From the NCBI GenBank assembly GCA_964627425.1, contig CAZVIY010000007.1, forward strand, positions 63,510 through 127,509: 64,000 nucleotides of DNA, written 5' to 3'. The notes under the pieces were generated by a model. That model made no database searches, was not told where the DNA came from, and worked only from the letters and a program-made list of their open reading frames with translations. Of the stretch, positions 13,541 through 59,183 are shown piece after piece (the stretch's first letter is position 1; every line of letters starts with the position of its first letter). Source of the stretch: an uncultured Gemmatimonadota bacterium. Its GTDB lineage: Bacteria > Gemmatimonadota > Gemmatimonadetes > Palauibacterales > Palauibacteraceae. Position numbers and translations under genes: made by a program.

Positions 13541-17014
<3,474 letters not shown>

Positions 17015-30828: not shown

Positions 30829-30884
30829 TGGCAAGACACCGGCCTTTGGAGCCGGCGATCCAGGTTCGAATCCTGGGGGGCCAA
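30814..30884 (+). tRNA. tRNA-Gln (anticodon UUG); CCA end not encoded
   Basis: Hand-folded cloverleaf: acceptor TGGCCCC/GGGGCCA (U1-A72 as in bacterial tRNA-Gln), D-stem GTCT/AGAC, anticodon stem CCGGC/GCCGG with loop CTTTGGA, T-arm CCAGG-TTCGAAT-CCTGG, and discriminator A followed by TGC. Confidence 0.8.
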
Positions 30885-30894: not shown

Positions 30895-32262
30895 TCAGCC
30901 CCCCACCGCCGGCGTCCGCTCGCCGCCCTCCACGTAGACCACGCCGCCCTTCATGACGAAGTGCATGTCCCTCAGCGCTTCGGGGTCCTCCAGGGGGTCG
31001 CCCTCCACGGCGACGATGTCGGCCAGCATGCCGGGCTCGATGGCGCCGATCCGGTCCTCCATGCCCAACAGCCGGGCGTTCACGCCGGTGGCCGCCCGGA
31101 TGGCGTCCATCATGGGGTAGCCGGTCTCGGCCATATAGACGAACTCCCGGGCGTTCTCGCCGTGGGGGAAGACGCCGGCGTCGGTGCCGAAGGAGATGGG
31201 CACGCCGGCCCGCCACGCCCGGCCGAAGGTCTCCTGGATCTTCGGGCCCAGCTCCCGGGCCTTGGGCACCACCACCGCGGGATAGTAGCCCTCCACCTCG
31301 GCAAGCTCGGCCACCTCCTTGCCGGCGGTGATGGTGGGGACCAGGTAGCTGTCCCGCTCGACCATGAGCTCCATGGTCTCCTCGCTCATCAGCGTGCCGT
31401 GCTCGATGGTCTTCACGCCGGCCCGGACGGCGCGGGCCATCCCCTCGTCGCCGTGGGCGTGGGCCGCCACCTGCACGCCCCAGTCGGAGGCGGTCTCCAC
31501 GATGGTCCGGATCTCCTCCTCGGAGAACTGGGGCCGCTGGCCCTCCCGGGCCACGCTGAGGACGCCCCCGGTGGCGGTGATCTTGATCCAGTCCGCCCCC
31601 TGCTTGATCTGATGCCGCACACCTTTCCGGGCCTCGGCCACGCCGTCCACCACGCTCTGGTGGGGCCCCGGCTCGCCCATGAGGTCGCGGCGGTAGCCGT
31701 TGGTGGGGTCGGCGTGGCCGCCGGTCACCCCCAGGGCCTCGCCGGCGCTCACGATCCGGGGGCCCGCCACCCGTCCGGCGGCGACGGCCTGCCCGAGGGA
31801 CGTGTTCACCCCCGAGCCGCCCACGTCCCGGACGGTGGTGAAGCCGGCCTCCAGGGTCCGCCGGGCGAAGACCACGGAGCGGAAGGCCCGGTCCTCGGGG
31901 TTCAGCGTGAACTGCTCCAGGAACCGGTCCGGGTTGGTTTCCCCCTCCAGGTGGACGTGCATGTCGATGAGCCCCGGCATCACCGTGGCGTCGCTGAGGT
32001 CCACCAGCCGGTCGCCCTCGCCGGGCTCCGCGAACCCGTCCTCCACGGCGGCGATCTCGCCGTCCTCCACGACGACGGTCATCCCGGAGCGGGGCTCCTC
32101 GGACGTGCCGTCGATGAGGGTGCCGGCGTGGATGTAGGTGCTCTGGGCCGTCAGGGCGCCGGGGGCCAGGCACAGGAGGACGAAGCAGAGGACGGCCGCC
32201 ACGGAGGCGGGACGGATCGAGCGGGCGCACGTGACGGGGCCGCGCACGATGGAGCTGCGCAT
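30895..32262 (-). CDS. Secreted metal-dependent amidohydrolase family protein
   Basis: A signal peptide (VAAVLCFVLLCLAPGALTAQS), metal ligands PGLIDMHVHL, HAHGD and FGTDAG, and imidazolonepropionase / Xaa-Pro dipeptidase-like architecture. Confidence 0.8.
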   Translation of the reverse strand: MRSSIVRGPVTCARSIRPASVAAVLCFVLLCLAPGALTAQSTYIHAGTLIDGTSEEPRSGMTVVVEDGEIAAVEDGFAEPGEGDRLVDLSDATVMPGLIDMHVHLEGETNPDRFLEQFTLNPEDRAFRSVVFARRTLEAGFTTVRDVGGSGVNTSLGQAVAAGRVAGPRIVSAGEALGVTGGHADPTNGYRRDLMGEPGPHQSVVDGVAEARKGVRHQIKQGADWIKITATGGVLSVAREGQRPQFSEEEIRTIVETASDWGVQVAAHAHGDEGMARAVRAGVKTIEHGTLMSEETMELMVERDSYLVPTITAGKEVAELAEVEGYYPAVVVPKARELGPKIQETFGRAWRAGVPISFGTDAGVFPHGENAREFVYMAETGYPMMDAIRAATGVNARLLGMEDRIGAIEPGMLADIVAVEGDPLEDPEALRDMHFVMKGGVVYVEGGERTPAVGG

Positions 32263-32565: not shown

Positions 32566-33972
32566 ATGCGCACCGTCGTCTCCCTCCTCGCCTCGCTCCT
32601 CCTCCTCGCCTGCACGGCCTCCGCCCAGGAGACCGACGATCCCTTCCCCGAGCCCATCGAGGCCGAGGAGGGCACGGTGGTGGTGGAGGTGGAGCACTTC
32701 GCTGCGATCCCCGACGCCGATGGCGAGCCGGCCCGGATGATGACCCTGGTCCACGAGCCCGGCACCGACCGCCTCTTCGTGAGCGACCAGCGGGGCACCC
32801 TGTACGTGCTGGACGAGGGCGGCGAGGTCGGGACGTACCTGGACGTGGACGACGCCCGGTGGGGCGTGGAGGTGGACGCCGGGTGGCGGGAGAAGGGCGT
32901 GCAGAACTTCGCCTTCCACCCACAGTTCGCCCAGGAGGGGGCGCCCGGCTACGGGAAGCTCTACGTGTGGACCGACACCCACCGGACCGACCCGGAGCCC
33001 GACTTCCGGCCCTCCGGCGGCGACGACTCCCACGACATGGTGCTCCTGGAGTTCACCGCGGCCGACGCCGGGGCCGCCTCTTACGACGGCGGCTCGCCCC
33101 GGGAGCTCATGCGCTTCGAGCAGCCCTACGGCAACCACAACGGGGGCGAGCTCACCTTCAATCCCCTGGCCGGGCCCGGCGATCCGGACTACGGCCTCCT
33201 CTACGTGGGGGTGGGCGACGGGGGCGCCGGCGGGGATCCCCACGACATGGCCCGGGACCCGTCCTCGGCCTTCGGGAAGGTGCTGCGGATCGACCCGCTG
33301 GGCTCCGACGGGGTCTCGGGAGAGTACGGCGTACCCCCGGACAACCCCTTCGTCGGCGACGAGGGCACCCTGGACGAGATCTATCTCCTGGGCCTGCGCA
33401 ACCCTCAGCACCTGGCGTGGGATCCCGCCGACGGCGCCATGTTCGTGGCCGACATCGGCCAGAACACGGTGGAGGAGGTGAGCCGGGCCGAGGCCGGCGA
33501 CGACCTGGGCTGGAACGAGTGGGAGGGCAGCTTCCGGTTCACCGGCTCGGTGAGCCTGGAGGACCCCCGGAGCGATCCCGAGGTCACGTACCCGGTGGCC
33601 GAGTACGACCAGGAGGACCCGCTGCTCATCGGCCGGGCCGCCGTCACCGGCCTCCACGTGGTCCGGGACGGAGCGGTCCCGGCGCTGGAGGGACAGCTGC
33701 TGTTCGGCGACCTGCCCAGCGGGGAGCTCTTCCACGTGGACGCCGACGACCTGCCCGACGGCGGCCAGGACGCCATCCGCCGGGTGCTGTTCGACCCGGG
33801 CGACGGCGAGCCCCGGACCCTGCGCGAGCTGGTGGAGGAGACGCGCCGGGAGCAGGGACGGGACGAGGCGGGCCGGGTGGACCTCCGGCTGGGCACGGCG
33901 CCCGACGGACGGATCTTCCTGCTGAACAAGCACGACGGGGTGCTCCGGGTGGTGGTCCCCGGGAGCGGGTGA
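32566..33972 (+). CDS. PQQ-dependent sugar dehydrogenase (soluble aldose/glucose dehydrogenase, SGDH family), secreted
   Basis: A signal peptide MRTVVSLLASLLLLACTASAQ, beta-propeller motifs PYGNHNGGELTFNP, GLLYVGVGDGG and LLGLRNPQHLAWD. The ATG has a GAGAGG RBS. Only the C-terminal 468 aa of the long track ORF are real. Confidence 0.75.
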   Translation: MRTVVSLLASLLLLACTASAQETDDPFPEPIEAEEGTVVVEVEHFAAIPDADGEPARMMTLVHEPGTDRLFVSDQRGTLYVLDEGGEVGTYLDVDDARWGVEVDAGWREKGVQNFAFHPQFAQEGAPGYGKLYVWTDTHRTDPEPDFRPSGGDDSHDMVLLEFTAADAGAASYDGGSPRELMRFEQPYGNHNGGELTFNPLAGPGDPDYGLLYVGVGDGGAGGDPHDMARDPSSAFGKVLRIDPLGSDGVSGEYGVPPDNPFVGDEGTLDEIYLLGLRNPQHLAWDPADGAMFVADIGQNTVEEVSRAEAGDDLGWNEWEGSFRFTGSVSLEDPRSDPEVTYPVAEYDQEDPLLIGRAAVTGLHVVRDGAVPALEGQLLFGDLPSGELFHVDADDLPDGGQDAIRRVLFDPGDGEPRTLRELVEETRREQGRDEAGRVDLRLGTAPDGRIFLLNKHDGVLRVVVPGSG

Positions 33973-34108
33973 GACGGGTTACCGGAACCGGGTGAGCCGG
34001 GTTCCCGCGAGCGGATAGACGCGTCCGTGGAGCCCGCCCACCGGGCCGGGCCGGCGGGAGGTCCCGGCGCCGGCGCCCGCCCGCCTCAGCCCCGGTCGCC
34101 CACCCGCC

Positions 34109-34795
34109 TCAGTCCCGGTCGTCCGCCCGCCCCAGCTCCCGGAGGAGCTCCCTGCGGGTGAGGCGCATGTTCCCCTCCAGGATCTCCAGGGCGCGGTCCC
34201 GCCGTCCCTCCGCCAGGGCGTCCACGAGCTCCCGGTGCTCCCGCACGGAGCGCTCGCCGTGGGAGGGGTCGGAGTAGTACCAGGTCTCCAGCCGCCGGAG
34301 CTGGGCCCGGAGGTCCTCCAGCAAGCGCCCCAGCCGCTCGTTCCCGCTCCGCTCGGCGATCAGTGCGTGGAACCGGTCGTTCCGGTCCACGGCCGCCGCC
34401 ACGTCCCCGGCCTCCACGGCCTCCCGCAGGCGGCCGTTGATCCGTCTGAGCTCCTCCAGGTCGCCGGCGTCCAGGCCGGGGAACGCCAGCCGCCCGGCCA
34501 GCACCTCCAGGGCCGCGACGATGGGGTAGAGCTCCAGGAGCCGGGAGAGGGACTCCTCGGGGACCCGGAACCCGCGGTGGGGGATCCGCTCCAGGAAGCC
34601 CTCCGAGGCCAGCCGGGCCAGGGCCTCCCGGACGGGCGTCCGGCTGACCCCGATCTCCTCGCTGAGCCCCTGCTCGCGGAAGAACCGGTCCTGGGGCACC
34701 TCCCCCTCCAGCAGGCGCCCCCTGACCTCCCGGTAGACCCGGTCCGCCAGGGTGGCGCCGGAGCCGCCGGTGGGTTCTCCTCTGGTCTCGTCCAT
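34109..34795 (-). CDS. GntR family transcriptional regulator (FadR/FCD subfamily)
   Basis: wHTH RFFREQGLSEEIGVSRTPVREALARLASEGFLERIPHRGFRV plus a C-terminal FCD helical domain. Only the C-terminal 228 aa of the 700-aa track ORF are real. Confidence 0.8.
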   Translation of the reverse strand: MDETRGEPTGGSGATLADRVYREVRGRLLEGEVPQDRFFREQGLSEEIGVSRTPVREALARLASEGFLERIPHRGFRVPEESLSRLLELYPIVAALEVLAGRLAFPGLDAGDLEELRRINGRLREAVEAGDVAAAVDRNDRFHALIAERSGNERLGRLLEDLRAQLRRLETWYYSDPSHGERSVREHRELVDALAEGRRDRALEILEGNMRLTRRELLRELGRADDRD

Positions 34796-34844
34796 TCGCG
34801 ATCCCCTGGGCCGTGGAACGTCCGGGTTGCGCCCGCCGGTGAGA

Positions 34845-34866
34845 TTGTATACATGTCGTACACGAT
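34845..34866. promoter_or_regulatory. Candidate GntR operators: two adjacent GT-N-AC palindromes (tTGTATACAt and tcGTACACga) in the GntR/mmsA divergent intergenic region
   Basis: Read at 34841-34870: gagattgtatacatgtcgtacacgatatgc. They fit the NyGT-N-ACNy pattern of FadR-type GntR regulators. Confidence 0.45.
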
Positions 34867-34966
34867 ATGCGAGGGGGGCGGACGATCGTCCTCCTCCGAG
34901 GGGCGCTCGAGGGAGCGCTCGCCCGAGGCAGAGCCAGCTCAGACGACCGCGTGCGCTGGAGGCGCC

Positions 34967-36445
34967 ATGACCATCGAATCCAGGGGGGGCGGCGAGGGGG
35001 GCGGCCCGGTCCCCAACTTCATCGACGGAGCGTGGACGCCCTCCGGATCCGGCGAATCGCTCCCGGTGGACGATCCCGCCACCGGCGAGCGGATCGCCTG
35101 CGTGCCCCTCTCCACGCCGGCCGAGGTCGGGGGAGCGGTGGAGGCGGCGGCCTCGGCGTTCCCGGACTGGCGCGAGACCCCCCCGGTGGAGCGGGCACGG
35201 GTCCTCTTCCGCCTGAAGGCCCTGCTGGAGGAGCACCACGAGGAGCTGGCCGAGAGCCTGACCCGGGAACACGGGAAGACGCGCCGGGAGAGCCGGGGCG
35301 AGATCCAGCGGGGGATCGAGAACGTCGAGCACGCCTGCGGCATCCCCTCCCTCATGATGGGCCGGAGCCTCGAGGACGTGGCCTCCGGCATCGACTGCCA
35401 GGAGTACCGCCAGCCCCTGGGCGTCTTCGCCGCCGTGACGCCCTACAACTTCCCCGTCATGATCCCGCTGTGGTTCTGGCCGTACGCCCTGGCCACAGGC
35501 AACACCTTCGTGCTGAAACCCAGCGAGCGGGACCCCGTCACCCACCAGCGCATCGTGGAGCTGGCGGCCGAGGCCGGCGTGCCCGACGGCGTGCTGAACG
35601 TGGTGCACGGCGACGCCGACGCGGCCACGGCGATCCTCGAGCACCCGGAGGTGGCGGGGGTCTCCTTCGTCGGATCCAGCCACGTGGCGCGGTCGGTCTA
35701 CGCGAAGGCGGCCGAGGAGGGCAAGCGGGTCCAGGCGCTGGGCGGCGCCAAGAACCACCTGGTGGTCATGCCCGACGCCGACATGGAGGCGGCGGCCGAC
35801 GCCATCACCTCCTCCATCTACGGCTCGGCGGGCCAGCGGTGTCTGGCCGGCAGCGTGGTGGTGGGGGTGGGCGACGCCTACGCCCCGGTCAGGGACCGGC
35901 TCCTGGAGCGCGCCTCCTCGCTCACCGTGGGCCACGGGCTGGAGGAGGGCGTGGACATGGGGCCCGTGATCTCGGGGCCCCACCGGGACCGGATCCGGCG
36001 CTACATCGAGGAGGGCGCCGATGAAGGGGCCCGGATCGCGCTGGACGGCCGCTCCCTGAAGGTGGAGGCGCACCCGGAGGGCCACTGGATCGGGCCCACC
36101 GTGCTGGAGGACGTGGACCCCGAGATGTCGGTGGGCCGCGAGGAGATCTTCGGGCCGGTGGCCGGCCTCACCCGGGCCGGCTCGGTGGCCGAGACGGTGG
36201 AGATCATCCACCGGGTGGAGTACGGCAACGCCACGTCCATCTTCACGGCCAGCGGCCGCGCCGCCCGGGAGTTCCGGTACCGGGCGGGGATCAGCATGAT
36301 CGGGGTGAACATCGGCGTGGCCGCCCCCATGGCCTTCTTCCCCTTCGGGGGCTCGCGGGGCTCCTTCTACGGCGACCTCAAAGCCCAGGGACGGGACGCC
36401 ATCGAGTTCTACACGGACAGGCGCGTGGTCATCTCCCGATGGTGA
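34967..36445 (+). CDS. mmsA: CoA-acylating methylmalonate/malonate-semialdehyde dehydrogenase
   Basis: Aldehyde dehydrogenase fold with the catalytic Cys in GSAGQRCLAGS and the MmsA-type C-terminus. The ATG is preceded by GGAGG. Only the C-terminal 492 aa of the 736-aa track ORF are real. Confidence 0.8.
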   Translation: MTIESRGGGEGGGPVPNFIDGAWTPSGSGESLPVDDPATGERIACVPLSTPAEVGGAVEAAASAFPDWRETPPVERARVLFRLKALLEEHHEELAESLTREHGKTRRESRGEIQRGIENVEHACGIPSLMMGRSLEDVASGIDCQEYRQPLGVFAAVTPYNFPVMIPLWFWPYALATGNTFVLKPSERDPVTHQRIVELAAEAGVPDGVLNVVHGDADAATAILEHPEVAGVSFVGSSHVARSVYAKAAEEGKRVQALGGAKNHLVVMPDADMEAAADAITSSIYGSAGQRCLAGSVVVGVGDAYAPVRDRLLERASSLTVGHGLEEGVDMGPVISGPHRDRIRRYIEEGADEGARIALDGRSLKVEAHPEGHWIGPTVLEDVDPEMSVGREEIFGPVAGLTRAGSVAETVEIIHRVEYGNATSIFTASGRAAREFRYRAGISMIGVNIGVAAPMAFFPFGGSRGSFYGDLKAQGRDAIEFYTDRRVVISRW

Positions 36446-37761
36446 ACGGAACGGTGGTGAACGGAACCGGGGGCGGCCTGGCGGAGGCCCACCGGGAGCG
36501 CCTGTTCCCCTGGGTGAAGCCCTACTACGAGGAGCCGATCCAGCTCGTGGAGGGTCGGGGGAGCCGGGTGCGGGACGCCGCCGGCCGGGAGTACCTGGAC
36601 CTGTTCGCGGGCATCCTCACCACCTCCATCGGCCACTGCCACCCGGCGGTGACGCGGAGCGTGTCGGAGCAGATGGAGCGCCTGGGTCACACCTCCACCC
36701 TGTACCTGACGGAGAACCAGGTCGGGGTGGCCCGGCGCCTGGCCCGGCTCACCCCCGACGGGGTCGGTCGTGCCTGCTTCACCAACAGCGGCACCGAGGC
36801 GGTGGAGACGGCGGTCATGGGGGCCCGGATCGCCACCGGCCGCGACGAGATCGTCGCCCTGCGGCACGCCTACTCGGGGCGGAGCCTCCTGGCCACCAAC
36901 ATCACCGGGCACGCCGCCTGGCGCCCCCTGTCGGCCTCGATCCCGGGGATCGTCCACGCGCGCTCGCCCTACCCCTACCGGTGCCCCGTGGGCTCCGGCG
37001 ACCCGGAGGCCTGCCTCGAGTTCTCCATCGACGACCTGGTGGAGGTCATCGAGACCACCACCAGCGGCCGGCCGGCGGGTCTCCTGGTGGAGCCCATCCA
37101 GGGGGTGGGGGGCTTCATCGTCCCACCCCCCGGCTACCTCCGCCGGGCGGCCGAGGTCATCCGGAGCTACGGCGGCCTCTTCATCTGCGACGAGGTGCAG
37201 ACGGGCTTCGGGCGCACCGGCGAGGAGTGGTTCGCCGCCGCGCACGAGGGGGTGGCGCCGGACGTCATGATCATGGCGAAGGGGATCGCCAACGGCTTCC
37301 CCGTGGGCGCCACGGTCGCCACCGACGAGGTGGCCGACGCCTGGACCGCCGCCTCCATCTCCACCTACGGCGGCAACCCCGTGGCCATGGCCGCGGCGGA
37401 GGCGACCCTGGACGTCATGGTCCAGGAGGACGTGCCGGCCCGCTCGGCCGCCCGGGGCCGCCAGCTCCGCGATGGCCTGGAGCGGCTGGAGCGGGAGCAC
37501 CCATGGATCGGGGAGGTCCGCGGCATGGGCCTGATGCAGGCCATGGAGCTGGTGGAGGACGGGGAGTCCCGCGACCCCGCGACCGACACGGCCCGCCGGC
37601 TCCTGGAGGCTGCGAAGGAGGAGGGGCTCCTGGTGGGCCTCGGGGGGCTCCACGGCCACGTGGTCCGGCTCGGCCCCTCCATGCTGATCTCCGAGGACGA
37701 GGTGGAGGAGGGGCTCCAGCGCCTGGGCCGGGCGTGCCGTCGGGTGGACGAGTCCGCGTGA
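36439..37761 (+). CDS. Class III (omega) aminotransferase, PLP-dependent
   Basis: The family pattern YLDLFAGILTTSIGHCHP, FICDEVQTGFGRTGE, PDVMIMAKGIANGFPVGA and STYGGNP. It overlaps the mmsA stop. Confidence 0.85.
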   Translation: MVNGTVVNGTGGGLAEAHRERLFPWVKPYYEEPIQLVEGRGSRVRDAAGREYLDLFAGILTTSIGHCHPAVTRSVSEQMERLGHTSTLYLTENQVGVARRLARLTPDGVGRACFTNSGTEAVETAVMGARIATGRDEIVALRHAYSGRSLLATNITGHAAWRPLSASIPGIVHARSPYPYRCPVGSGDPEACLEFSIDDLVEVIETTTSGRPAGLLVEPIQGVGGFIVPPPGYLRRAAEVIRSYGGLFICDEVQTGFGRTGEEWFAAAHEGVAPDVMIMAKGIANGFPVGATVATDEVADAWTAASISTYGGNPVAMAAAEATLDVMVQEDVPARSAARGRQLRDGLERLEREHPWIGEVRGMGLMQAMELVEDGESRDPATDTARRLLEAAKEEGLLVGLGGLHGHVVRLGPSMLISEDEVEEGLQRLGRACRRVDESA

Positions 37762-37822
37762 GCGGATCGGGGCCGGGCGCGACGGAGCGCGTCCGCGTGA
37801 GGCGGCCGCGGGGGGTCCGCCG

Positions 37823-37978
37823 GTGATCGCCGGGCTTCCCTGGGAGTCCTGGCTCCTGTTCCTGGTCTCGGTGGGCGCCGGCCTCTGGCTGGTGGCCGCC
37901 TTCCACCTCCGCCACCGGGAGGGCCGCGGACGCCGCCCCCGCCCGGACGGCGACGGCCCCCGCGGCGGCGGGAACTAG
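37823..37978 (+). CDS. Small membrane protein (51 aa), DUF3311-like partner of sodium:solute symporters
   Basis: Hand-translated VIAGLPWESWLLFLVSVGAGLWLVAAFHLRHREGRGRRPRPDGDGPRGGGN. It sits immediately upstream of the SSS transporter, which is a common arrangement. It is below the ORF-track size cut-off. Confidence 0.35.
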   Translation: MIAGLPWESWLLFLVSVGAGLWLVAAFHLRHREGRGRRPRPDGDGPRGGGN

Positions 37979-37993
37979 GGAGCGCGCGGGAGG

Positions 37994-39508
37994 ATGGGCG
38001 GCACGCCGACGATCATCGCCATCATGGTCGCCTACCTGGCGGTCCTGCTGGTCCTGGGGGTGTGGGGCGGCCGGGACTCCGACGACGTGGCCGGCTACTA
38101 CGTGGCCGGGAAGAAGCTCCCCTCCTGGGTCATCGCCTTCAGCTCGAACAGCACCGGCGAGAGCGCGTGGCTCCTGCTGGGCCTCACTGGCATGGGCTAC
38201 ATGGTGGGGATCCACGCCCTCTGGGTGGTGCTCGGGGAGGTGCTGGGGGTCACCCTGGCCTGGGTGTTCGTGGCGCGGCCGTTCAAGGAGTACACCGACC
38301 GCTACGACGCTATCACCATCCCCGACTACCTGGAGGAGCGGTTCCGGGACGGCTCCCACGTGCTCCGGCTGATCAGCGCGGCGGTGATCTTCTCCATGGT
38401 GGCCGCCTACACCGCCGCCCAGCTCACCGCCTCGGGGAAGGCCTTCGACTCGTTCCTGGGCACGGGCTACACGGCGGGAGTGCTGATCGGCGCCGCGGTG
38501 ATCCTGTTCTACACCACCGTCGGGGGGTTCAAGGCCGTCGCCTACAGCGACCTGCTGCAGGGCGTGCTCATGTTCGGGTGCCTCGTCGCCCTGCCGGTGG
38601 TGGGGATCGCCGCGGCGGGGGGCTGGTCGGGGCTGGTGGAGGGGCTGCGGGAGACGGACCCGAGCCTGCTGCTCCCGGGCGGGGGGCTCGGCGTCACGCC
38701 CGAGGGAGTGGCCAGCGTGCTGGGCTTCGTGGGCATCGGGATCGCCTTCCTGGGCTCCCCCCAGCTCCTGACCCGGTTCATCTCGGCCCGGGACCAGCGG
38801 AGCATCGTCGACGCCAGCCCCATCGCGGTGATCTGCATCGTGGTCTTCGACACGGGCGCCGTCTTCGCCGGGATGGCGGGACGGGTGCTCTTCCCCGGCC
38901 TCGCCGACTCGGAGACGATCTATCCGATGATGGCCACCGAGCTCTTTCCCGCCATCTTCGCCGGGATCTTCCTGGTGGTGGTGCTGGCCGCCATCATGTC
39001 CACGGTGGACTCGCTGCTCATCCTGGCCTCCTCGGCCGTGGTCCGCGACGTGGTCCAGCAGATCTACTCCCCCGGGCTCTCGGAGCGGCGGCTGTCGTGG
39101 TACGGCAAGCTCACCACGGTGGTCCTCGGGGCGGGAGCCCTGGCCCTGGCCCTGGGCGAGGTCCGGGTGATCTTCTGGTTCGTGCTCTTCGCGTGGTCCG
39201 GCCTCGCGTGTGCGTTCACGCCGGTGGTCCTGTGCTCGCTGTTCTGGAAGGGCACGACCCGGGCGGGGGCGATCTGGGGGATGATCGGCGGCTTCGTGAC
39301 GACGATCGTGTGGGTCGTGTTCTTCAAGGCCGGCTTCTACGACCTGTACGAGATGATCCCCGGCACGCTGGTGGGGCTGGCGCTCACGGTGGGGGTGAGC
39401 CTCCTCACCGAGCCGCCGGAAGGTGCCGCCCGGGAGCTGGAGGACGTGAGGCGCACGGTGGGTCCCGCGCTCCGGTCGGCGCGGGCGCCGGACGACGGGG
39501 GAAGATGA
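37994..39508 (+). CDS. Sodium:solute symporter family transporter (PutP/PanF-like)
   Basis: A 504-aa protein with about 13 TM segments and the SSS family pattern throughout (GYYVAGKKLPSWVIAFSSNSTGESAWLLLGLTG...). Confidence 0.85.
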   Translation: MGGTPTIIAIMVAYLAVLLVLGVWGGRDSDDVAGYYVAGKKLPSWVIAFSSNSTGESAWLLLGLTGMGYMVGIHALWVVLGEVLGVTLAWVFVARPFKEYTDRYDAITIPDYLEERFRDGSHVLRLISAAVIFSMVAAYTAAQLTASGKAFDSFLGTGYTAGVLIGAAVILFYTTVGGFKAVAYSDLLQGVLMFGCLVALPVVGIAAAGGWSGLVEGLRETDPSLLLPGGGLGVTPEGVASVLGFVGIGIAFLGSPQLLTRFISARDQRSIVDASPIAVICIVVFDTGAVFAGMAGRVLFPGLADSETIYPMMATELFPAIFAGIFLVVVLAAIMSTVDSLLILASSAVVRDVVQQIYSPGLSERRLSWYGKLTTVVLGAGALALALGEVRVIFWFVLFAWSGLACAFTPVVLCSLFWKGTTRAGAIWGMIGGFVTTIVWVVFFKAGFYDLYEMIPGTLVGLALTVGVSLLTEPPEGAARELEDVRRTVGPALRSARAPDDGGR

Positions 39509-39606
39509 GACGGTGGTACGGGACGAGATCGCGGGAGCGGCCAGGTAGCGCGGCAGGTCGGGACGCACCCCGCAGGGAGAGCAGCTCTCAGGATGGGAGG
39601 AGCGAC

Positions 39607-41397
39607 ATGACGGACCTTTCACGCAGGAGGTTCCTGGGGCTCGGAGCCCTCGGCGCCGCGGGCGCCGCCCTGGGCGGCGGGACGAACGGTGCGGCCGGGG
39701 CAGGGGCGTCGGGCGGGCCGGCCGGGGCAGGCACGGCGAGCGGGTCGACCGGAGCCGCCGGTCCGGGCGGGACGCCGCCCACGGAGCCGTCCTCGCCGGA
39801 CCTGGTGGCCCTGGGCGGGCGGGTCTACACCATCGACGACGACCGGCCCACCGCCGAGGCGTTCGCCGTCCGCGGCGACCGGTTCGTGGCCGTGGGGGGC
39901 ACCGAGGAGATCCGCGCCCTGGCGGGTCCGGAGACCGAAGTCCTGGACCTGCGGGGGCTCACGGTGACGCCCGGATTCATCGACGCTCACAGCCATCCGG
40001 CGGGGGCGGGACTGTCGCAGCTCCTCCACGTGAACGTGAACCTGGGGAGCATCGCCGAGATCCAGGAGGCGCTCCGGGCCCGGGCGGCCGAGACCCCACC
40101 GGGCGAGTGGGTCATCGGCGTCATGTACGACGACACGAAGCTCGAGGAGGGCCGGCCGGTCCGGAGGCGGGACCTGGACCGGGCCGTGCCGGACCATCCG
40201 GTGGAGGTCCGCCACCGGGGCGGCCACACCGCCGTCTACAACAGCCGGGCCTTCGAGCTCGCCGGCGTGACGGCCGACACCCCCGACCCCGAGGGAGGGA
40301 GGTTCTACCGGGAGGACGGGGAGCTCACGGGCAAGGTGGCCGAGGAGGCGCGCGGGGTGTTCTACGACCTGATCCCGTCCACCAGCACCCGGGAGCAGCG
40401 CCGCGAGGGCGTGGCCCTCATCTCCCGGCGGATGACGGCCGCCGGGCTCACCTCGGTCCACGACGTGTGGTGCGGCGCCGAGGACCTGACCGCCTACCAG
40501 GACGCCCGGCGGGCCGGCGAGCTCCGCTTCCGCACCTACCTGTTCCCGGGCGGGGGCACGGAGCTGTACTCCGCCCTCAAGACCGCGGGCGTCCGGACCG
40601 GCTTCGGCGACGAGTGGCTCCGGATCGGCGCGGTGAAGCACGCCGCCGACGGCTCGGCCTCGGAGCGCACCATGGCCATGAGCACGCCCTATCAGGGACG
40701 GCCGAACGACTACGGCATCCTCACCATGTCGCAGGAGGAGATCCACGAGGCGGTGGCCGACGCCGTCCGGCACGGCTTCCAGCTCGGCATCCACGCCAAC
40801 GGCGACGTGGCCATCGACCGCGTGCTGAACGCCTACGAGCGGGCCGAGCGCCGTGCCGACGAGCTGGGGCTGGGCCCCGATCCCCGGTTTCGCATCGAGC
40901 ACTGCTCCCTGGTGAATCCCGATCTGCTGGAGCGGATCGCGGCCGTGGGTGCCGTGCCCACCCCCTTCTACACCTACGTCCACTACCACGGCAACAAGTG
41001 GACGGAGTACGGGGAGGAGAAGATGCGGTGGATGTTCGCCCACCGCTCCTTCCTGGACCACGGGGTCCCGGTGGCGGCGGGGTCGGACTACCCGCCGGGG
41101 CCCTTCGACCCCATGATGGCCATCCAGAGCATGGTCACCCGGACCGACATGCAGGGACGGGTCTGGGGACCGAACCAGCGGATCGGCGTGCGGGAGGCGC
41201 TCCGCGTGGGCACGATCCACGGAGCCTACGCGTCGTTCGAGGAGCACCTGAAGGGCTCGATCACGCCCGGCAAGCTCGCCGACTTCACCGTCCTCCAGGA
41301 GGATCCCCATGAGGTGGACCCGGACCGGATCAAGGAGATCGAGGTGCTCCGTACGGTGGTGGGAGGGCGCACGGTCCACCCCGACCCCGAGGGCTGA
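39607..41397 (+). CDS. Amidohydrolase 3 (YtcJ-like) family metal-dependent hydrolase with Tat signal peptide
   Basis: Twin-arginine motif SRRRFLGLGALGAAGAA, then a Gly/Ala-rich linker, then PGFIDAHSHP, HANGD and SDYP metal-binding motifs. GGGAGG RBS. Confidence 0.8.
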   Translation: MTDLSRRRFLGLGALGAAGAALGGGTNGAAGAGASGGPAGAGTASGSTGAAGPGGTPPTEPSSPDLVALGGRVYTIDDDRPTAEAFAVRGDRFVAVGGTEEIRALAGPETEVLDLRGLTVTPGFIDAHSHPAGAGLSQLLHVNVNLGSIAEIQEALRARAAETPPGEWVIGVMYDDTKLEEGRPVRRRDLDRAVPDHPVEVRHRGGHTAVYNSRAFELAGVTADTPDPEGGRFYREDGELTGKVAEEARGVFYDLIPSTSTREQRREGVALISRRMTAAGLTSVHDVWCGAEDLTAYQDARRAGELRFRTYLFPGGGTELYSALKTAGVRTGFGDEWLRIGAVKHAADGSASERTMAMSTPYQGRPNDYGILTMSQEEIHEAVADAVRHGFQLGIHANGDVAIDRVLNAYERAERRADELGLGPDPRFRIEHCSLVNPDLLERIAAVGAVPTPFYTYVHYHGNKWTEYGEEKMRWMFAHRSFLDHGVPVAAGSDYPPGPFDPMMAIQSMVTRTDMQGRVWGPNQRIGVREALRVGTIHGAYASFEEHLKGSITPGKLADFTVLQEDPHEVDPDRIKEIEVLRTVVGGRTVHPDPEG

Positions 41398-42802
41398 GCG
41401 CGGCGGCCGTCTCGTCGGGGTCGCCATCGCGGCGGCCCTGACCTGCCTCGCGGGATCGACCGGGACGCTGGAGGCCGCGACGTCACCGGACACCACGGAC
41501 GTGAGCCCCCGGGCCCGGGACGTGGGCGTCCCCTTCCGGGGCACGCCGGGCCCCCTGAACGCCATCACCGACGTGGCGGGCGTCGAGGTGGGCCACTCGA
41601 CCATCGTCTCGGGGAGCGGACGCCTGGTGGTCGGGGAGGGGCCGGTCCGGACCGGCGTGACGGCGGTCCTTCCCCGGGGCCGGACGTCCTTCGATCCCGT
41701 CTTCGCCGCCTGGTTCCCGATGAACGGGAACGGCGAGATGACGGGCACCACCTGGATCGACGAGTCCGGCTTCCTGGAGGGGCCGGTCCTCATCACCAAC
41801 ACCCACAGCGTCGGGGTGGTGAGGGACGCCGCCATCCGCTGGAGCCGGGACCGCGGCGATCCGTCCCTCTGGGCCCTGCCGGTGGTGGCCGAGACCTGGG
41901 ACGGGGTGCTGAACGACCTCGACGGGTTCCACGTCGAGCCCCGCCACGTCTTCGAGGCCCTGGAGAACGCCTCCGGCGGCCCCGTGGAGGAGGGAGCCGT
42001 GGGCGGGGGCACCGGCATGATCTGCAACGGCTTCAAGGGCGGGATCGGCACCTCCTCCCGGGAGCTGCCGGCCGAGGCGGGCGGCCACACCGTCGGCGTG
42101 CTCGTACAGTGCAACTACGGCGACCGAGAGACGCTGCGCATCGCCGGCGTCCCCGTGGGCCGGGAGATCCGGGACCTCCGCACCTGCCGCGCCTCCGACG
42201 TGCAGGTGGTCCGGGAGTTCCTGCGCGACCTGCCCCGGTGCCCGGAGGAGGAGGACGGGGGCCGCTCGCCCGGACCGGCCGCGGCGGCGGGCGGAGCGGT
42301 GAGTGTGCCGGCCGAGGCGGCCCCCGGTGACGGGGCGACGTCTCCCGCGGCCGCGGCGCCCATGCCGTGGAGCGGCCGCGGCTCCATCATCATCGTGGTG
42401 GCCACCGACGCGCCGCTCCTGCCCCATCAGCTCGAGCGGCTGGTGAAGCGGGCGGCCCTGGGGATCGGGCGGGAGGGGAGCATCGCGAGCCACTACTCGG
42501 GGGACATCTTCGTGGCCTTCTCCACGGCCAACCCCGGGGCGGCTGACGAGGCGGCGAGCGAGGCCGGGTCGGTCCCCCTCACCATGCTCCCCAACGAGCG
42601 GCTGGACCCCCTCTTCCGGGCCACGGTGCAGGCCACCGAGGAGGCCGTCACCAACGCCATGCTCGCCGCCGAGACCATGACCGGCGCCGGCGACGTCCGG
42701 GTCCACGCCCTCCCCTCCGACCGGCTGCGGCGGATCCTGGAGGAGTACGGTCGGATCGACGAGGACCCGCGTCCGGACGCGGCCCCCGACGCTCCCGAAT
42801 GA
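41309..42802 (+). CDS. P1-family (S58) peptidase, DmpA/BapA-like aminopeptidase; start uncertain
   Basis: Conserved GPLNAITDVAGVEVGHST, GNGEMTG, ITNTHSVG and TGMICNGFKGGIGTSS. The only in-frame ATG is 41309, which gives an 89-nt overlap with the upstream gene and a long charged n-region followed by LVGVAIAAALTCLAGS. A Gly/Ala-rich insertion of about 60 aa is present. Confidence 0.65.
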   Translation: MRWTRTGSRRSRCSVRWWEGARSTPTPRAERGGRLVGVAIAAALTCLAGSTGTLEAATSPDTTDVSPRARDVGVPFRGTPGPLNAITDVAGVEVGHSTIVSGSGRLVVGEGPVRTGVTAVLPRGRTSFDPVFAAWFPMNGNGEMTGTTWIDESGFLEGPVLITNTHSVGVVRDAAIRWSRDRGDPSLWALPVVAETWDGVLNDLDGFHVEPRHVFEALENASGGPVEEGAVGGGTGMICNGFKGGIGTSSRELPAEAGGHTVGVLVQCNYGDRETLRIAGVPVGREIRDLRTCRASDVQVVREFLRDLPRCPEEEDGGRSPGPAAAAGGAVSVPAEAAPGDGATSPAAAAPMPWSGRGSIIIVVATDAPLLPHQLERLVKRAALGIGREGSIASHYSGDIFVAFSTANPGAADEAASEAGSVPLTMLPNERLDPLFRATVQATEEAVTNAMLAAETMTGAGDVRVHALPSDRLRRILEEYGRIDEDPRPDAAPDAPE

Positions 42803-42809
42803 GGAGAAC

Positions 42810-43883
42810 CTACCGGCTCCCGGCCGGCCCCGCGGCGAAGGCGCTCAGGTGCACGAGCCCGTCCCGCCATCCCTCTTCCTCCGCCAGCTCCGGATCGTCC
42901 AGCTCGCCGCCCACGACGCCGCCCGACAGCACGCGGTAGGCGCCCCGGCCCGGCGTGGGCACCTGGGTGAGCTCCGCGTCGGCGACCTGGATGAGCAGGT
43001 CCAGCGCGTCGGCCCGGTCGGCGGGATCCCGGTCGCCTCGGGCGTCGCCCCCCGCACCGCGTCCGGCGGCGCTCCCCGGCCCACCCTCCGAGCCGGCTTC
43101 CGCGCCGCCCCCGGAGCCGGTTCCTCGCCCGCTCTCCTCGCGTCGCTCCTCGCGGAGCATGTCCAGGAGGTAGCCCCGGAGGAGCTGCTCGTGGAGATCG
43201 CCGTAGAGGGCCGGCGCGCCGATCAGGTCCATGCCCAGGGGCCGGCGGCCCAGGAAGACGGCGAGTCCCACCTGCCCCTCCACGAGGGGGAAGGCGTCGC
43301 CGAGCTCCCCGAGGCGCCCCATCCACGTCCGGTAGGCCTCGCCCAGGTCGCCGGTGGAGGAGGAGGCGTCCAGCGTCCGGGCGATCCCGTCGATCTCCTC
43401 CCACACGGCGTGCTGGGCGCGGCCGAGCTCCGAGGGCGCGAACGCCGCCGGGTCGCCGGCGCCGGCGCCCGCCGCCCGCTCCGCCTCCACCTCCCGGGCC
43501 TTCCGCCGGACGGCCGTCGGCGAATGCTGCGGGGCGTGCTCGAAGCGTCCGCTGCGGAAGTGCCAGCGTCCCTGCTCCATGCAGGAGACGGGAAGCGTCG
43601 TGTCGGTGCGGGCCGGGAGCAGGATGGTGCGGCTCGTGGTGCGGTTCTGTTTGGCGCCCACGAGCTGCTCGCCGTCGAGCACCAGGACGTCACGCGGCCC
43701 GCTGTTCCGGGCCACCACCTCGCCCACGTTCCCCGATCCCATCTCGGTGACCTCCACCTCTCCCGCCTCGATGGCGTCCCGGAGCAGGCGGTAGGGCAGC
43801 TCCCGCTCGGTCGCCGCCACCAGGGGAAAGACGGTGAGTCCGGCGCGGCGCAGGGGGCGTCCCGCGTCGACGGTCTCCAGCAT
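42810..43883 (-). CDS. Conserved hypothetical protein with VLVLDGEQLVGAKQNR...PVSCMEQGRW core (possibly ARPP-1-like family)
   Basis: A 357-aa ORF. The N-terminal region resembles a family I recall as ARPP-1/DUF-type (GNVGEVVARN...VLVLDGEQLVGAKQNRTTSRTILLP...LPVSCMEQGRW). The C-terminus has a low-complexity Gly-rich stretch. The family assignment comes from memory only. Confidence 0.5.
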   Translation of the reverse strand: MLETVDAGRPLRRAGLTVFPLVAATERELPYRLLRDAIEAGEVEVTEMGSGNVGEVVARNSGPRDVLVLDGEQLVGAKQNRTTSRTILLPARTDTTLPVSCMEQGRWHFRSGRFEHAPQHSPTAVRRKAREVEAERAAGAGAGDPAAFAPSELGRAQHAVWEEIDGIARTLDASSSTGDLGEAYRTWMGRLGELGDAFPLVEGQVGLAVFLGRRPLGMDLIGAPALYGDLHEQLLRGYLLDMLREERREESGRGTGSGGGAEAGSEGGPGSAAGRGAGGDARGDRDPADRADALDLLIQVADAELTQVPTPGRGAYRVLSGGVVGGELDDPELAEEEGWRDGLVHLSAFAAGPAGSR

Positions 43884-44133
43884 GGCAGTCCTCCAGGTTC
43901 GGTTCGTGAGGACTGCCGATGGTAGGGAGGGGGTGTGACAGCGGACGGGCCAGGGGTGGCGAGCCGCCTCTTCCCCGGGTCGCGTTCGTCCGTTATTTTT
44001 TCCGGTGGGGAGCAGGCCGGATCTTCCGGGCGTCGCGCTCCACGGCCTCGGGAGCCGGACCGCGAACGGCCCGCCCTCGCTGGGGCGAGGCCGTCACCTT
44101 CCACCGGAGCGCGCCAGGTCCGGAGCGATCGCC

Positions 44134-58217: not shown

Positions 58218-58465
58218 ACGGTACCTGGGGTGGAAGCGGCGAATGAAGAGGCCAGCTCAGGTAGGATAGCTGGCGGCGCGGGTCGAATACAGTACCGCCA
58301 TCGACCGGAGATTGGTCCGCCTGGCCGGACTCCGATCCGTCCCGTGAGCCTCACTTCCCGACGATCGGCCCTCCAGGAGGACCCGTGGTGGAGAAGGGGA
58401 GGGGGGCGGCACGTCGCACCATCGCGGTCGTGTCGCTCAGTGACCATTGGGTGACAGGAGTAGCT

Positions 58466-59139: not shown

Positions 59140-59183
59140 GCTTCCCCTCCGGCCGATAGGAACCTCTTTACTTTCTTACTTTT

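What the first reader, a model, noticed from the sequence alone, without database searches (positions are those of the whole stretch)
34109..42802. GntR-controlled locus combining a DmpA/BapA-like aminopeptidase, Tat-amidohydrolase, Na+/solute symporter, omega-transaminase and malonate-semialdehyde dehydrogenase: candidate beta-peptide or beta-amino-acid catabolic pathway
The P1 (S58) peptidase family includes beta-aminopeptidases (BapA, DmpA) that release N-terminal beta-amino acids. Beta-alanine and beta-aminoisobutyrate are degraded by an omega-aminotransferase and then by the CoA-acylating semialdehyde dehydrogenase MmsA. All of these are encoded contiguously on one strand here, together with an SSS transporter (plus its small DUF3311-like partner) and a secreted YtcJ-type amidohydrolase. 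A FadR-type GntR regulator is divergent from the locus. Two GT-N-AC operator-like palindromes lie in the intergenic region. Together these would make a complete uptake / hydrolysis / transamination / oxidation route.
Basis: inference. Interest (0 to 1): 0.55.

Follow-up and report, generated by a model that had tools for sequence, protein, structure and literature searches.

The report
Conserved operon for scavenging beta-alanine conjugates
A repressor-controlled operon, conserved in several soil-type (probably Gemmatimonadota) genomes, pairs two exported amide-cutting enzymes with an importer and the two enzymes that burn beta-alanine; this suggests, without proving, a natural job for "beta-aminopeptidases", which are known mainly from tests on synthetic substrates.

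Summary
At 34109-42802 a divergent FadR-type GntR gene faces six same-strand genes:
- a CoA-acylating (methyl)malonate-semialdehyde dehydrogenase
- a class-III aminotransferase
- a 51-aa membrane peptide
- a Na+/solute symporter
- a Tat-signal YtcJ-type amidohydrolase
- a signal-peptide S58 peptidase

The S58 protein's nearest solved relatives are BapA and DmpA (E about 1e-99). Its catalytic residues are kept and its motifs are DmpA-like.

The same architecture recurs at 57-82% protein identity in six other loci. Three of them add beta-lactamase-fold hydrolases and a TonB receptor, two of these also a SusD-like gene. A TTGTATAC operator box is conserved in all five regulator-operon spacers.

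Among 78 species-level loci of this S58 clade, a class-III aminotransferase lies within 3 kb in 25, and these aminotransferases belong to several subfamilies.

Best reading (about 0.5): beta-alanine, or a similar small beta-amino acid, is released from amide conjugates in the periplasm. It is then imported, transaminated and oxidised to acetyl-CoA.

The substrate is inferred, not shown. The aminotransferase cannot be assigned to a substrate. Either hydrolase can be absent or replaced. The small ORF is not DUF3311.

I rate it a new variant of known kinds, of moderate interest.

The parts
34109..34795 (-). FadR-subfamily GntR regulator (228 aa), divergent from the operon
   Evidence: Pfam GntR (56.7 bits) plus FCD (93 bits). 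The start equals the public annotation. Orthologues at 58-70% identity sit at the same divergent position in L001, L084, L085 and L086.
34845..34866 (.). Operator-like double box TTGTATACA-TG-TCGTACACGA in the 171-bp spacer between the regulator and the operon
   Evidence: GTATAC is at 34847 and GTACAC at 34858. GTATAC occurs twice in the whole 64-kb window. A TTGTATAC(A/G) or TTGTACACA box is conserved in the equivalent spacer of L001, L084, L085 and L086 while the flanks diverge. In L084-L086 it directly follows a TTGACA-17 nt-TAAnnT promoter-like site.
34967..36445 (+). CoA-acylating (methyl)malonate-semialdehyde dehydrogenase (492 aa)
   Evidence: TIGR01722 MMSDH at 581 bits against a cutoff of 448.5. 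SSADH TIGR01780 reaches only 276 bits against 646. The sequence contains AGQRCLAGS, which I take to hold the catalytic Cys (inference). JGI names a cluster mate malonate-/methylmalonate-semialdehyde dehydrogenase.
36439..37761 (+). Class-III (omega) aminotransferase (440 aa); overlaps the ALDH stop by 7 nt
   Evidence: Pfam Aminotran_3 at 320 bits. No NCBIfam cutoff is reached (best is PRK08117, 342 bits against 574). The best PDB relatives are GabT enzymes, with caprolactam racemase and an AGXT2-like phospholyase scoring nearly as high.
37823..37978 (+). Conserved single-TM small ORF (51 aa, VIAGLPWESWLL...), ending 15 nt before the SSS gene
   Evidence: The GC3 signal is coding in this frame. 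The motif (M/V)IAGLPWxxWLL is present at the same position in L001, L084, L085 and L086. No Pfam match reaches gathering score and DUF3311 is not hit.
37994..39508 (+). Na+/solute symporter (SSS family, 504 aa)
   Evidence: Pfam SSF at 264 bits. Nearest curated models are PutP (359 bits, cutoff 515.5) and PanF (224 bits, cutoff 328), both below cutoff. Orthologues at 71-82% identity occur in five loci.
39607..41397 (+). Tat-signal YtcJ-type metal amidohydrolase (596 aa)
   Evidence: Amidohydro_3 at 363 bits over positions 1-472 of 472. The sequence shows an SRRRFLGLG N-terminus and an HSH metal motif. Only uncharacterised PDB relatives were found (3icj, E 2.5e-35). Orthologues at 65-78% identity lie in the same operon in L017, L084, L085, L086 and L088.
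41309..42802 (+). Exported DmpA/BapA-type S58 (P1) Ntn-hydrolase aminopeptidase (497 aa from ATG 41309; the public annotation starts at GTG 41501, 433 aa)
   Evidence: Peptidase_S58 at 382 bits. PDB: BapA 3n2w E 1.2e-99, DmpA 1b65 E 2.1e-98. The clade profile scores DmpA at 414.7 bits and BapA at 403.3 bits. The nucleophile Ser359 follows GRG, and E195, S397 and D399 align to BapA E133, S288 and E290. ATG 41309 has an AGGAGG 6 nt upstream and adds a hydrophobic signal segment. All 21 aligned homologues carry a signal peptide and four invariant Cys.

Best explanation
This is a GntR-repressed operon that harvests a small beta-amino acid, most probably beta-alanine, from amide-linked conjugates.

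Proposed steps:
1. Two exported hydrolases act in the periplasm. The S58 Ntn-hydrolase removes an N-terminal beta-alanyl (or other small) residue from peptides or amides. The Tat-exported YtcJ-type metallo-amidohydrolase cleaves a complementary amide, such as an N-acyl or C-terminal linkage.
2. The freed amino acid enters through the Na+/solute symporter, probably helped by the conserved 51-aa membrane peptide.
3. The class-III aminotransferase converts it to malonate (or methylmalonate) semialdehyde.
4. The CoA-acylating dehydrogenase oxidises and decarboxylates that to acetyl-CoA (or propionyl-CoA).
5. Without inducer, the FadR-type GntR protein sits on the TTGTATAC boxes at the operon promoter.

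Shown here: gene content, export signals, family membership, conserved synteny and the operator footprint.
Inferred: the substrate identity, the division of labour between the two hydrolases, co-transcription and repression.
For: - Family assignments, with the ALDH above the MMSDH cutoff and far below the SSADH cutoff.
- The nearest solved relatives of the S58 protein are the two characterised beta-aminopeptidase-type enzymes, and the catalytic residues are kept.
- In published carnosine-synthesis kinetics, DmpA handles a beta-alanyl acyl donor much better than BapA: Km 0.48 vs 23 mM (PMC9570944).
- Same-strand genes have gaps of -7, +61, +15, +98 and -89 nt, with no terminator-like site.
- The same architecture occurs in L001, L084, L085 and L086, rearranged in L017 and variant in L088, at 57-82% identity.
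- The operator box is conserved in 5 of 5 spacers.
- Among 78 species-representative loci of this S58 clade, a class-III aminotransferase lies within 10 kb in 34, within 3 kb in 25, and adjacent on the same strand in 12.
- These aminotransferases come from at least five subfamilies. One is an AptA-type omega-aminotransferase at 715 bits (cutoff 500). One locus also has a second MMSDH. This pattern is non-orthologous replacement.
- The transporter is likewise replaced by an APC permease in other loci.
- In P. aeruginosa, bapF sits with a divergent regulator and a permease, and beta-alanine scavenging has been proposed for it (PMC13344977).
- A secreted Amidohydro_3 enzyme that frees taurine from conjugates for catabolism is a precedent for the amidohydrolase role (PMC13081902).
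Against: - No substrate has been tested.
- By my recollection, not checked here, DmpA-type enzymes also cleave L-alpha and D-Ala substrates. The S58 motifs here are DmpA-like, not BapA-like.
- The aminotransferase reaches no curated cutoff, and its closest solved relatives are GABA transaminases.
- The symporter is closest to proline and pantothenate carriers.
- L001 lacks the amidohydrolase, and L088 has Asparaginase_2 where S58 sits.
- More distant amidohydrolase orthologues (L089, L090) are not linked to these genes.
- More than half of the sampled S58 loci have no aminotransferase within the DNA held, up to 10 kb each side where the contig allows.
- The extended loci carry S12 hydrolases that resemble D-stereospecific peptidases, which fits D-peptide use as well.
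Confidence: 0.5

Rival explanations
1. This is general or D-amino-acid peptide scavenging. The S58 enzyme works as a DmpA-style L-aminopeptidase / D-Ala amidase on ordinary or cell-wall-derived peptides, together with other periplasmic peptidases. The aminotransferase and MMSDH handle a side product, for example valine-derived methylmalonate semialdehyde, and are not the sink for the S58 product.
For: - The S58 motifs are DmpA-like.
- The extended loci L084-L086 add PF00144 hydrolases whose best solved relatives are D-stereospecific peptidases and amidases: Pab87 (2qmi), alkaline D-peptidase, D-amino acid amidase and DAP.
- In other phyla the S58 gene lies among S9, M61, M14 and M28 peptidases.
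- JGI labels many homologues D-aminopeptidase.
Against: - By my knowledge of these pathways, standard alpha- or D-amino acids are not substrates for a class-III aminotransferase plus MMSDH pair. Yet that pair is the invariant core of the operon.
- Class-III aminotransferases of several subfamilies recur next to this S58 clade.
- No D-amino-acid dehydrogenase or racemase was seen in the operon.
Confidence: 0.2
2. The logic is the same but the monomer differs. The hydrolases free another omega- or beta-amino compound from N-acyl or peptide conjugates: beta-aminoisobutyrate, 3-aminobutyrate, GABA, or a taurine/hypotaurine-like amine. The amidohydrolase is the key liberating enzyme and S58 is accessory.
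For: - The aminotransferase is unassigned and closest to GabT. JGI names it 4-aminobutyrate aminotransferase.
- Characterised YtcJ/Amidohydro_3 relatives are an epsilon-lysine acylase and a taurine-specific bile-salt hydrolase.
- The amidohydrolase, not S58, is retained in L088.
- TIGR01722 members also act on methylmalonate semialdehyde (family description).
Against: - The ALDH fails the succinate-semialdehyde (276 against 646 bits) and sulfoacetaldehyde (233 against 700 bits) dehydrogenase models. This argues against GABA and against a route through sulfoacetaldehyde dehydrogenase.
- L001 keeps S58 and lacks the amidohydrolase.
- 3-Aminobutyrate would give a ketone and need no ALDH (inference).
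Confidence: 0.15
3. The genes are merely neighbours with no shared pathway.
For: Several S58-clade loci and distant amidohydrolase orthologues lack the other genes.
Against: - Gene order is kept in six further loci at only 57-82% protein identity.
- Coding regions overlap or abut.
- There is one divergent regulator with a conserved operator.
Confidence: 0.03

Closest known systems
DmpA (Ochrobactrum anthropi, PDB 1b65) and BapA (Sphingosinicella, PDB 3n2w), beta-aminopeptidases of MEROPS family P1 / Pfam S58
   Same: - Full-length S58 domain, with E about 1e-99 to both.
- Self-cleavage site with a Ser nucleophile, and a conserved Glu/Ser/Ser-Gly-Asp set.
- A signal peptide precedes the point where the deposited BapA chain begins.
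   Different: - Forms its own clade of roughly 50-60% identity to the solved enzymes over the aligned blocks (my estimate from the alignments).
- Has four invariant Cys and an extra Cys-flanked loop before the cleavage site. In the window copy there is also a roughly 20-residue longer Ala/Pro-rich stretch.
- Motifs are DmpA-type (G|S, NGNGEMTG, SGD), not BapA-type (N|S, NGTGEWTG, SGE).
- Embedded in a catabolic operon.
P. aeruginosa bapF locus (PA1484 regulator, PA1485 permease, PA1486 BapF)
   Same: A divergent regulator plus a transporter plus an S58 beta-alanyl aminopeptidase. Beta-alanine scavenging has been proposed for it (PMC13344977).
   Different: The locus here also carries the two catabolic enzymes, an exported amidohydrolase and a small membrane peptide. 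Its transporter is SSS, not the predicted amino-acid permease. The purpose implied is catabolism rather than CoA-precursor supply.
Beta-alanine catabolism of Pseudomonas: omega-transaminase plus malonate-semialdehyde dehydrogenase. The gene names bauABCD and the LysR regulator are from my own knowledge. PMC4907197 appeared in the search list but was not read.
   Same: The aminotransferase followed by CoA-acylating MMSDH chemistry. The ALDH meets TIGR01722.
   Different: The aminotransferase is of a different, unassigned class-III subfamily. The regulator is GntR/FadR-type. The transporter is SSS. The exported hydrolases are part of the same operon.
Nylon-oligomer degradation set: NylB (beta-lactamase fold), NylC (Ntn hydrolase), NylD (class-III aminotransferase), NylE (ALDH). 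Recalled from my own knowledge, not from a tool.
   Same: The extended loci L084-L086 combine PF00144 hydrolases, an Ntn hydrolase, a class-III aminotransferase and a semialdehyde dehydrogenase. This is the same logic of depolymerising, transaminating and oxidising an omega-amino-acid amide.
   Different: The clade profile returned only DmpA/BapA-type entries and ThnT from the PDB, and no entry named as a nylon hydrolase, even at E <= 10. The ALDH is C3-specific MMSDH, not an adipate-semialdehyde type. This is analogy only.
Secreted metal-dependent bile-salt hydrolase of Bilophila (Amidohydro_3) and Streptomyces epsilon-lysine acylases (YtcJ-like)
   Same: An exported Amidohydro_3/YtcJ-family enzyme that frees an amino compound from an N-acyl amide. 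In Bilophila the freed taurine feeds catabolism.
   Different: The only solved relatives found are uncharacterised.

Membership tests
Peptidase family P1 / Pfam S58 (DmpA/BapA beta-aminopeptidases) | Full-length Peptidase_S58 domain | tested here: met
   PF03576 at 382 bits, residues 84-461, profile positions 1-303 of 307.
Peptidase family P1 / Pfam S58 (DmpA/BapA beta-aminopeptidases) | Autoproteolytic site with a Ser nucleophile that starts the beta chain (G|S in DmpA, N|S in BapA) | tested here: met
   GRG|S359-IIIVVATDAPL aligns to DmpA ERG|S-IIVVLATDLPL and to BapA KN|S250. It is invariant in 22 clade members. Cleavage itself was not observed.
Peptidase family P1 / Pfam S58 (DmpA/BapA beta-aminopeptidases) | Catalytic and amino-group-binding residues (BapA E133, S288, E290; DmpA Y146, N218, recalled from the structure papers) | tested here: met
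   E195, S397, D399, W197 (Y in most clade members) and N269 occupy these columns. Which residues are catalytic is from memory.
Peptidase family P1 / Pfam S58 (DmpA/BapA beta-aminopeptidases) | Preference for N-terminal beta-amino acids | not testable with these tools
   Needs enzyme assays. Motifs resemble DmpA, which by my recollection is not beta-exclusive.
CoA-acylating (methyl)malonate-semialdehyde dehydrogenase (TIGR01722) | Score above the curated cutoff over the full length | tested here: met
   581.1 bits against 448.5, positions 2-477 of 477. All other ALDH models are below their cutoffs.
CoA-acylating (methyl)malonate-semialdehyde dehydrogenase (TIGR01722) | CoA-dependent oxidative decarboxylation of malonate or methylmalonate semialdehyde | not testable with these tools
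   Biochemical assay needed.
Pseudomonas-type beta-alanine catabolon (Bau) | Beta-alanine:pyruvate omega-transaminase of the BauA type | tested here: inconclusive
   The window aminotransferase reaches no NCBIfam cutoff. Its best PDB relatives are GabT enzymes, with omega-transaminases further down the list.
Pseudomonas-type beta-alanine catabolon (Bau) | LysR regulator and APC-type permease | tested here: not met
   The regulator is GntR+FCD and the transporter is SSF.
FadR subfamily of GntR regulators | N-terminal GntR winged helix plus C-terminal FCD domain | tested here: met
   PF00392 at 56.7 bits and PF07729 at 93 bits.
FadR subfamily of GntR regulators | Palindromic GT-N-AC type operator near the regulated promoter | tested here: met
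   A TTGTATACA / GTACAC box is conserved in five orthologous spacers. Binding was not tested.
YtcJ-like Amidohydro_3 metallohydrolases | Full-length Amidohydro_3 domain with an HxH metal motif | tested here: met
   PF07969 at 363 bits, positions 1-472 of 472. DAHSHP is seen in the sequence.
Tat-exported proteins | Twin-arginine S/T-R-R-x-F-L motif before a hydrophobic segment | tested here: met
   MTDLSRRRFLGLGALGAAGA. L088 has TRRRFLELG. The L085 and L086 orthologues lack the RR pair.
Sodium:solute symporter family; PutP or PanF equivalogs | SSF domain; equivalog cutoffs for proline or pantothenate carriers | tested here: not met
   The SSF domain is present at 264 bits. PutP reaches 359 bits against 515.5 and PanF 224 bits against 328. 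It is an SSS member but not a PutP or PanF equivalog.
DUF3311 small partner of SSS transporters | Match to the DUF3311 profile | tested here: not met
   No DUF3311 hit at E <= 1 for three orthologous small ORFs. The ORF is conserved as (M/V)IAGLPWxxWLL.
Nylon-oligomer hydrolase NylC type | Detectable sequence relationship to NylC structures | tested here: not met
   A profile search of the PDB at E <= 10 returned only DmpA, BapA, two D-aminopeptidase entries and ThnT.

The most novel reading that the evidence does not exclude
The locus, especially in its extended form with a TonB-dependent receptor (plus SusD in two of three loci) and S12 hydrolases (L084-L086), is a polysaccharide-utilisation-locus-like system for natural beta-alanyl conjugates, beta-linked peptides or polyamides. 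Candidate substrates are carnosine-type dipeptides, beta-alanyl-amines of arthropod cuticle, N-acyl-beta-alanines, or beta-linked residues that accumulate in aged soil organic nitrogen. If so, it would give the first physiological role and natural substrate class for DmpA/BapA-type beta-aminopeptidases. It would also reveal an unrecognised nitrogen and carbon niche of Gemmatimonadota and Acidobacteriota.
Probability: 0.3. Interest if true: 0.65.

Novelty: new variant of a known kind. Interest (0 to 1): 0.45.

Why it matters
To my knowledge, beta-aminopeptidases were found and studied with synthetic beta-peptides and chromogenic probes, and their natural substrates and role are still unclear. 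In the library searched, only a June 2026 preprint proposes a role, beta-alanine scavenging for P. aeruginosa bapF.

This operon physically joins such an enzyme to uptake and to the two enzymes of beta-alanine breakdown. It does so under one repressor, repeatedly, in abundant but little-studied soil phyla. That gives a concrete, testable hypothesis: the inducer, the operator, four enzymes to assay, and a conserved small membrane peptide.

It also points to a possible route by which soil bacteria recover non-protein amino acids from amide-bound organic matter. If the substrate turns out to be ordinary peptides, the locus is an unremarkable peptide-scavenging operon.

Tried and rejected
- **Actinomycete origin.** I assumed this from the 74% G+C. 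The closest named relatives of the S58 and amidohydrolase proteins are Gemmatimonadota, Longimicrobium and Acidobacteriota MAG proteins, so I dropped it. The source genome itself could not be looked up.
- **DUF3311 identity of the small ORF.** No match.
- **NylC membership.** Not detected. Kept only as an analogy.
- **Consensus promoter/terminator scan of 33900-43950.** Nothing found. This is uninformative for this phylum.
- **Generic inverted-repeat search of the spacer.** It found only GC-rich imperfect repeats and missed the short AT-rich boxes. Alignment and a motif search found them.
- **Upstream Amidohydro_1 (30895-32262) and GSDH (32566-33972), and downstream ARPP-1 gene.** These are not conserved with the operon in the six related loci and were left out.
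- **PutP, PanF, GabT and SSADH assignments.** All are below curated cutoffs.
- **Rfam scan.** Only a tRNA, no riboswitch.
- **Distant amidohydrolase orthologues (L089, L090).** They do not share the context.
- **Not run.** Structure prediction and fold search were skipped. The solved relatives of the amidohydrolase are uncharacterised, and the S58 relatives were already clear from sequence.

Full report
**Observation**

The window is about 74% G+C, so mechanical ORF lists are dominated by shadow frames. A third-position G+C frame plot, with start codons chosen by their upstream context, gives one minus-strand gene and six plus-strand genes between 34109 and 42802. Profile searches assign them as follows:
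- GntR + FCD, 34109-34795 (-)
- CoA-acylating methylmalonate/malonate-semialdehyde dehydrogenase, 34967-36445 (TIGR01722, 581 bits against a cutoff of 448.5)
- class-III aminotransferase, 36439-37761
- a 51-codon ORF, 37823-37978
- sodium:solute symporter, 37994-39508
- full-length Amidohydro_3 protein, 39607-41397, beginning MTDLSRRRFLGLG
- Peptidase_S58 protein ending at 42802

Five of these proteins, with exactly these starts, exist in the public protein collection on a 138-kb NCBI contig. The plus-strand genes overlap or are at most 98 nt apart, and no terminator-like site lies inside.

There are three corrections. The gene order is dehydrogenase first and peptidase last. The small ORF is not DUF3311. 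The peptidase start is uncertain. The public annotation uses GTG 41501, which begins where the deposited (mature) BapA chain begins and leaves no signal peptide. ATG 41309 has an AGGAGG 6 nt upstream and supplies a hydrophobic export segment. All 21 aligned homologues have a signal peptide.

**The peptidase**

Its best solved relatives are the beta-peptidyl aminopeptidase BapA (3n2w, E 1.2e-99) and DmpA (1b65, E 2.1e-98). Two proteins annotated as D-aminopeptidases follow. A profile of the clade scores DmpA at 414.7 bits and BapA at 403.3 bits. The only other PDB hit is the distant ThnT, and no entry named as a nylon hydrolase appears even at E <= 10.

- Ser359, after GRG, aligns with the nucleophile Ser250.
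- E195, S397 and D399 align with BapA E133, S288 and E290.
- The motifs NGNGEMTGT, ITNTHS, G|S and SGD are those of DmpA rather than BapA.
- The clade also has four invariant cysteines and an extra Cys-flanked loop before the cleavage site, which fits life outside the cytoplasm.

However, by my recollection DmpA-type enzymes are not exclusive for beta-amino acids. Published carnosine-synthesis kinetics do show DmpA handling a beta-alanyl acyl donor far better than BapA (Km 0.48 vs 23 mM; PMC9570944).

**Comparative genomics**

Homologues of the peptidase and the amidohydrolase are overwhelmingly from Gemmatimonadota, Longimicrobium and Acidobacteriota MAGs. The window is therefore probably from Gemmatimonadota, not an actinomycete. 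Its own record could not be retrieved.

Locus by locus:

| Locus | Architecture |
|---|---|
| L001 (Gemmatimonadota MAG) | GntR(-) / ALDH-AT-SSF-S58, no amidohydrolase |
| L084, L085, L086 | Full window architecture including a small ORF before SSF. Continue with one or two beta-lactamase-fold (PF00144) genes and a TonB-dependent receptor, plus a SusD-like gene in L085 and L086 |
| L017 | S58-ALDH-AT-amidohydrolase |
| L088 | PF00144-ALDH-AT-SSF-amidohydrolase, then a Tat-signal Asparaginase_2 Ntn hydrolase where S58 would be |

Orthologues are 57-82% identical to the window proteins, so the order has survived substantial divergence. The small ORF is conserved as (M/V)IAGLPWxxWLL in five loci.

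In all five spacers with a divergent GntR gene there is a TTGTATAC(A/G) or TTGTACACA box. In L084-L086 it directly follows a TTGACA-17 nt-TAAnnT site. In the window and L001 there are two tandem boxes. GTATAC occurs only twice in the 64-kb window.

**Wider association**

I retrieved 80 species-representative genome loci that encode this S58 clade. An S58 ORF could be called in 78 of them.
- A class-III aminotransferase ORF lies within 10 kb in 34 loci, within 3 kb in 25, and directly upstream on the same strand in 12.
- The density is about 5 per 100 kb. That is far above the few copies per genome I would expect (my estimate, not measured here).
- These aminotransferases belong to different subfamilies: an AptA-type omega-aminotransferase (715 bits, cutoff 500), PRK07483-type, PRK06062-type next to a second MMSDH (557 bits), PRK05769-type and GabT-type.
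- The transporter is also replaced. An APC permease sits between the aminotransferase and S58 in Steroidobacteraceae loci. A different exported amidohydrolase follows S58 in Acidobacteriota-type loci.

Replacement of each partner by a non-orthologous equivalent argues that the S58 product is an omega/beta-type amine that is imported and transaminated.

The same loci are also rich in ordinary exported peptidases (S9, M61, M14, M28). More than half have no aminotransferase within the DNA held. The loci are the 80 best of more than 594 hits and are not phylogenetically independent.

**Mechanism proposed**

Shown: two exported amide hydrolases, a Na+-coupled importer with a conserved small partner, an aminotransferase, a dehydrogenase that meets the MMSDH model but not the succinate-semialdehyde or sulfoacetaldehyde dehydrogenase models, and a FadR-type regulator with a conserved operator.

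Inferred: in the periplasm the S58 enzyme removes an N-terminal beta-alanyl (or similar small) residue, and the YtcJ-type enzyme cuts a complementary amide. The free beta-alanine is imported, transaminated to malonate semialdehyde and converted to acetyl-CoA. GntR represses until an inducer appears.

The role suggested for the amidohydrolase rests only on analogy. Characterised members of its family include Streptomyces epsilon-lysine acylases and a secreted Bilophila enzyme that frees taurine from bile-salt conjugates to feed taurine catabolism. Its solved relatives are uncharacterised. I put about 0.5 on this reading.

**Rivals**

1. A general or D-peptide scavenging locus in which S58 acts DmpA-like on alpha- or D-Ala substrates. 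This is supported by the S12 hydrolases of L084-L086, whose best solved relatives are D-stereospecific peptidases and amidases. It does not explain why the aminotransferase-MMSDH pair is the invariant core. Confidence about 0.2.
2. The same logic with another amine, such as beta-aminoisobutyrate or GABA. This is possible because the aminotransferase is unassigned and most like GabT. The dehydrogenase profile argues against GABA and against a route through sulfoacetaldehyde dehydrogenase. Confidence about 0.15.
3. Chance adjacency, which conserved synteny and the shared operator make very unlikely.

**Comparison with the known**

The peptidase is a member of family P1/S58 by every sequence criterion testable here. 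Substrate preference is untested. The dehydrogenase is a TIGR01722 member.

The locus resembles the P. aeruginosa bapF unit of divergent regulator, permease and S58 enzyme. A June 2026 preprint proposes beta-alanine scavenging for that unit. The locus also resembles the Pseudomonas beta-alanine catabolon in chemistry. It is not a member of either: the regulator, transporter and aminotransferase families differ, and it joins hydrolysis, uptake and catabolism in one operon.

The extended loci parallel the nylon-oligomer toolkit (beta-lactamase-fold hydrolase, Ntn hydrolase, class-III aminotransferase, semialdehyde dehydrogenase). This is recalled from my own knowledge and is analogy only.

Full-text searches found no paper that links an S58 enzyme to an aminotransferase/MMSDH operon.

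**Verdict**

It is a new variant built from known parts rather than a new kind of system.

Its value is that it offers a testable physiological role for beta-aminopeptidases and a possible beta-amino-acid recovery route in soil phyla. Its weakness is that the substrate is wholly inferred and the hydrolase complement varies between loci. Interest 0.45.

Noticed in passing
window 13541-17014 (+): The recA gene encodes a 1157-aa product. Two intein-splicing stretches and two LAGLIDADG homing-endonuclease domains interrupt the RecA core. It coincides with a local G+C dip to 66.6% at 14001-16000. A double-intein RecA in a probable Gemmatimonadota genome may deserve its own look.
   Followed up: partly
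window 58000-64000: G+C falls from about 74% to 53-63%. There are few long ORFs. One encodes a DUF2442 + HTH_31 protein (59415-60263, -) and others have no family. This is possibly a foreign island or a mis-join at the end of the window.
   Followed up: partly
window 30814-30884 (+): tRNA-Gln (anticodon TTG), found by both Rfam and ARAGORN. It is the only RNA gene detected in the window.
   Followed up: yes
window 30895-32262 (-) and 32566-33972 (+): An Amidohydro_1 hydrolase and a GSDH-family dehydrogenase, both with signal peptides, lie just upstream of the GntR gene. They are not conserved with the operon. However, a distantly related Amidohydro_1 gene (26-29% identity in L005 and L014) lies directly after S58 in Acidobacteriota-type loci L005, L014, L018, L030 and L077.
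   Followed up: partly
L003 10001-12319: A 772-aa protein with two tandem S58 domains (56% and 59% identical to the window enzyme). It lies next to a 1159-aa protein with Tricorn N-terminal, PD40 and Amidohydro_1 domains.
   Followed up: no
L088 10965-12041: In an otherwise orthologous operon, the S58 slot is occupied by an Asparaginase_2 (isoaspartyl-peptidase-type) Ntn hydrolase with a Tat-like signal, followed by an M28 peptidase. This hints that the shared theme is beta-linked N-terminal residues.
   Followed up: partly
L015, L020, L022 (Steroidobacteraceae and related Gammaproteobacteria MAGs), about 2500-14000: A different S58 neighbourhood: AT-ALDH-CoA-transferase A/B-AT-APC permease-S58, then a convergent M14 carboxypeptidase.
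   Followed up: partly
window 42810-43883 (-), 46671-47660 (-) and 47657-48814 (-): An ARPP-1 domain protein lies directly after the operon, 7 nt from the S58 stop on the opposite strand. Further on, after a Big_2 surface protein, are two adjacent WYL/WCX regulators, one of which also has a PafC-type HTH. They are unrelated to the operon in the other loci.
   Followed up: no
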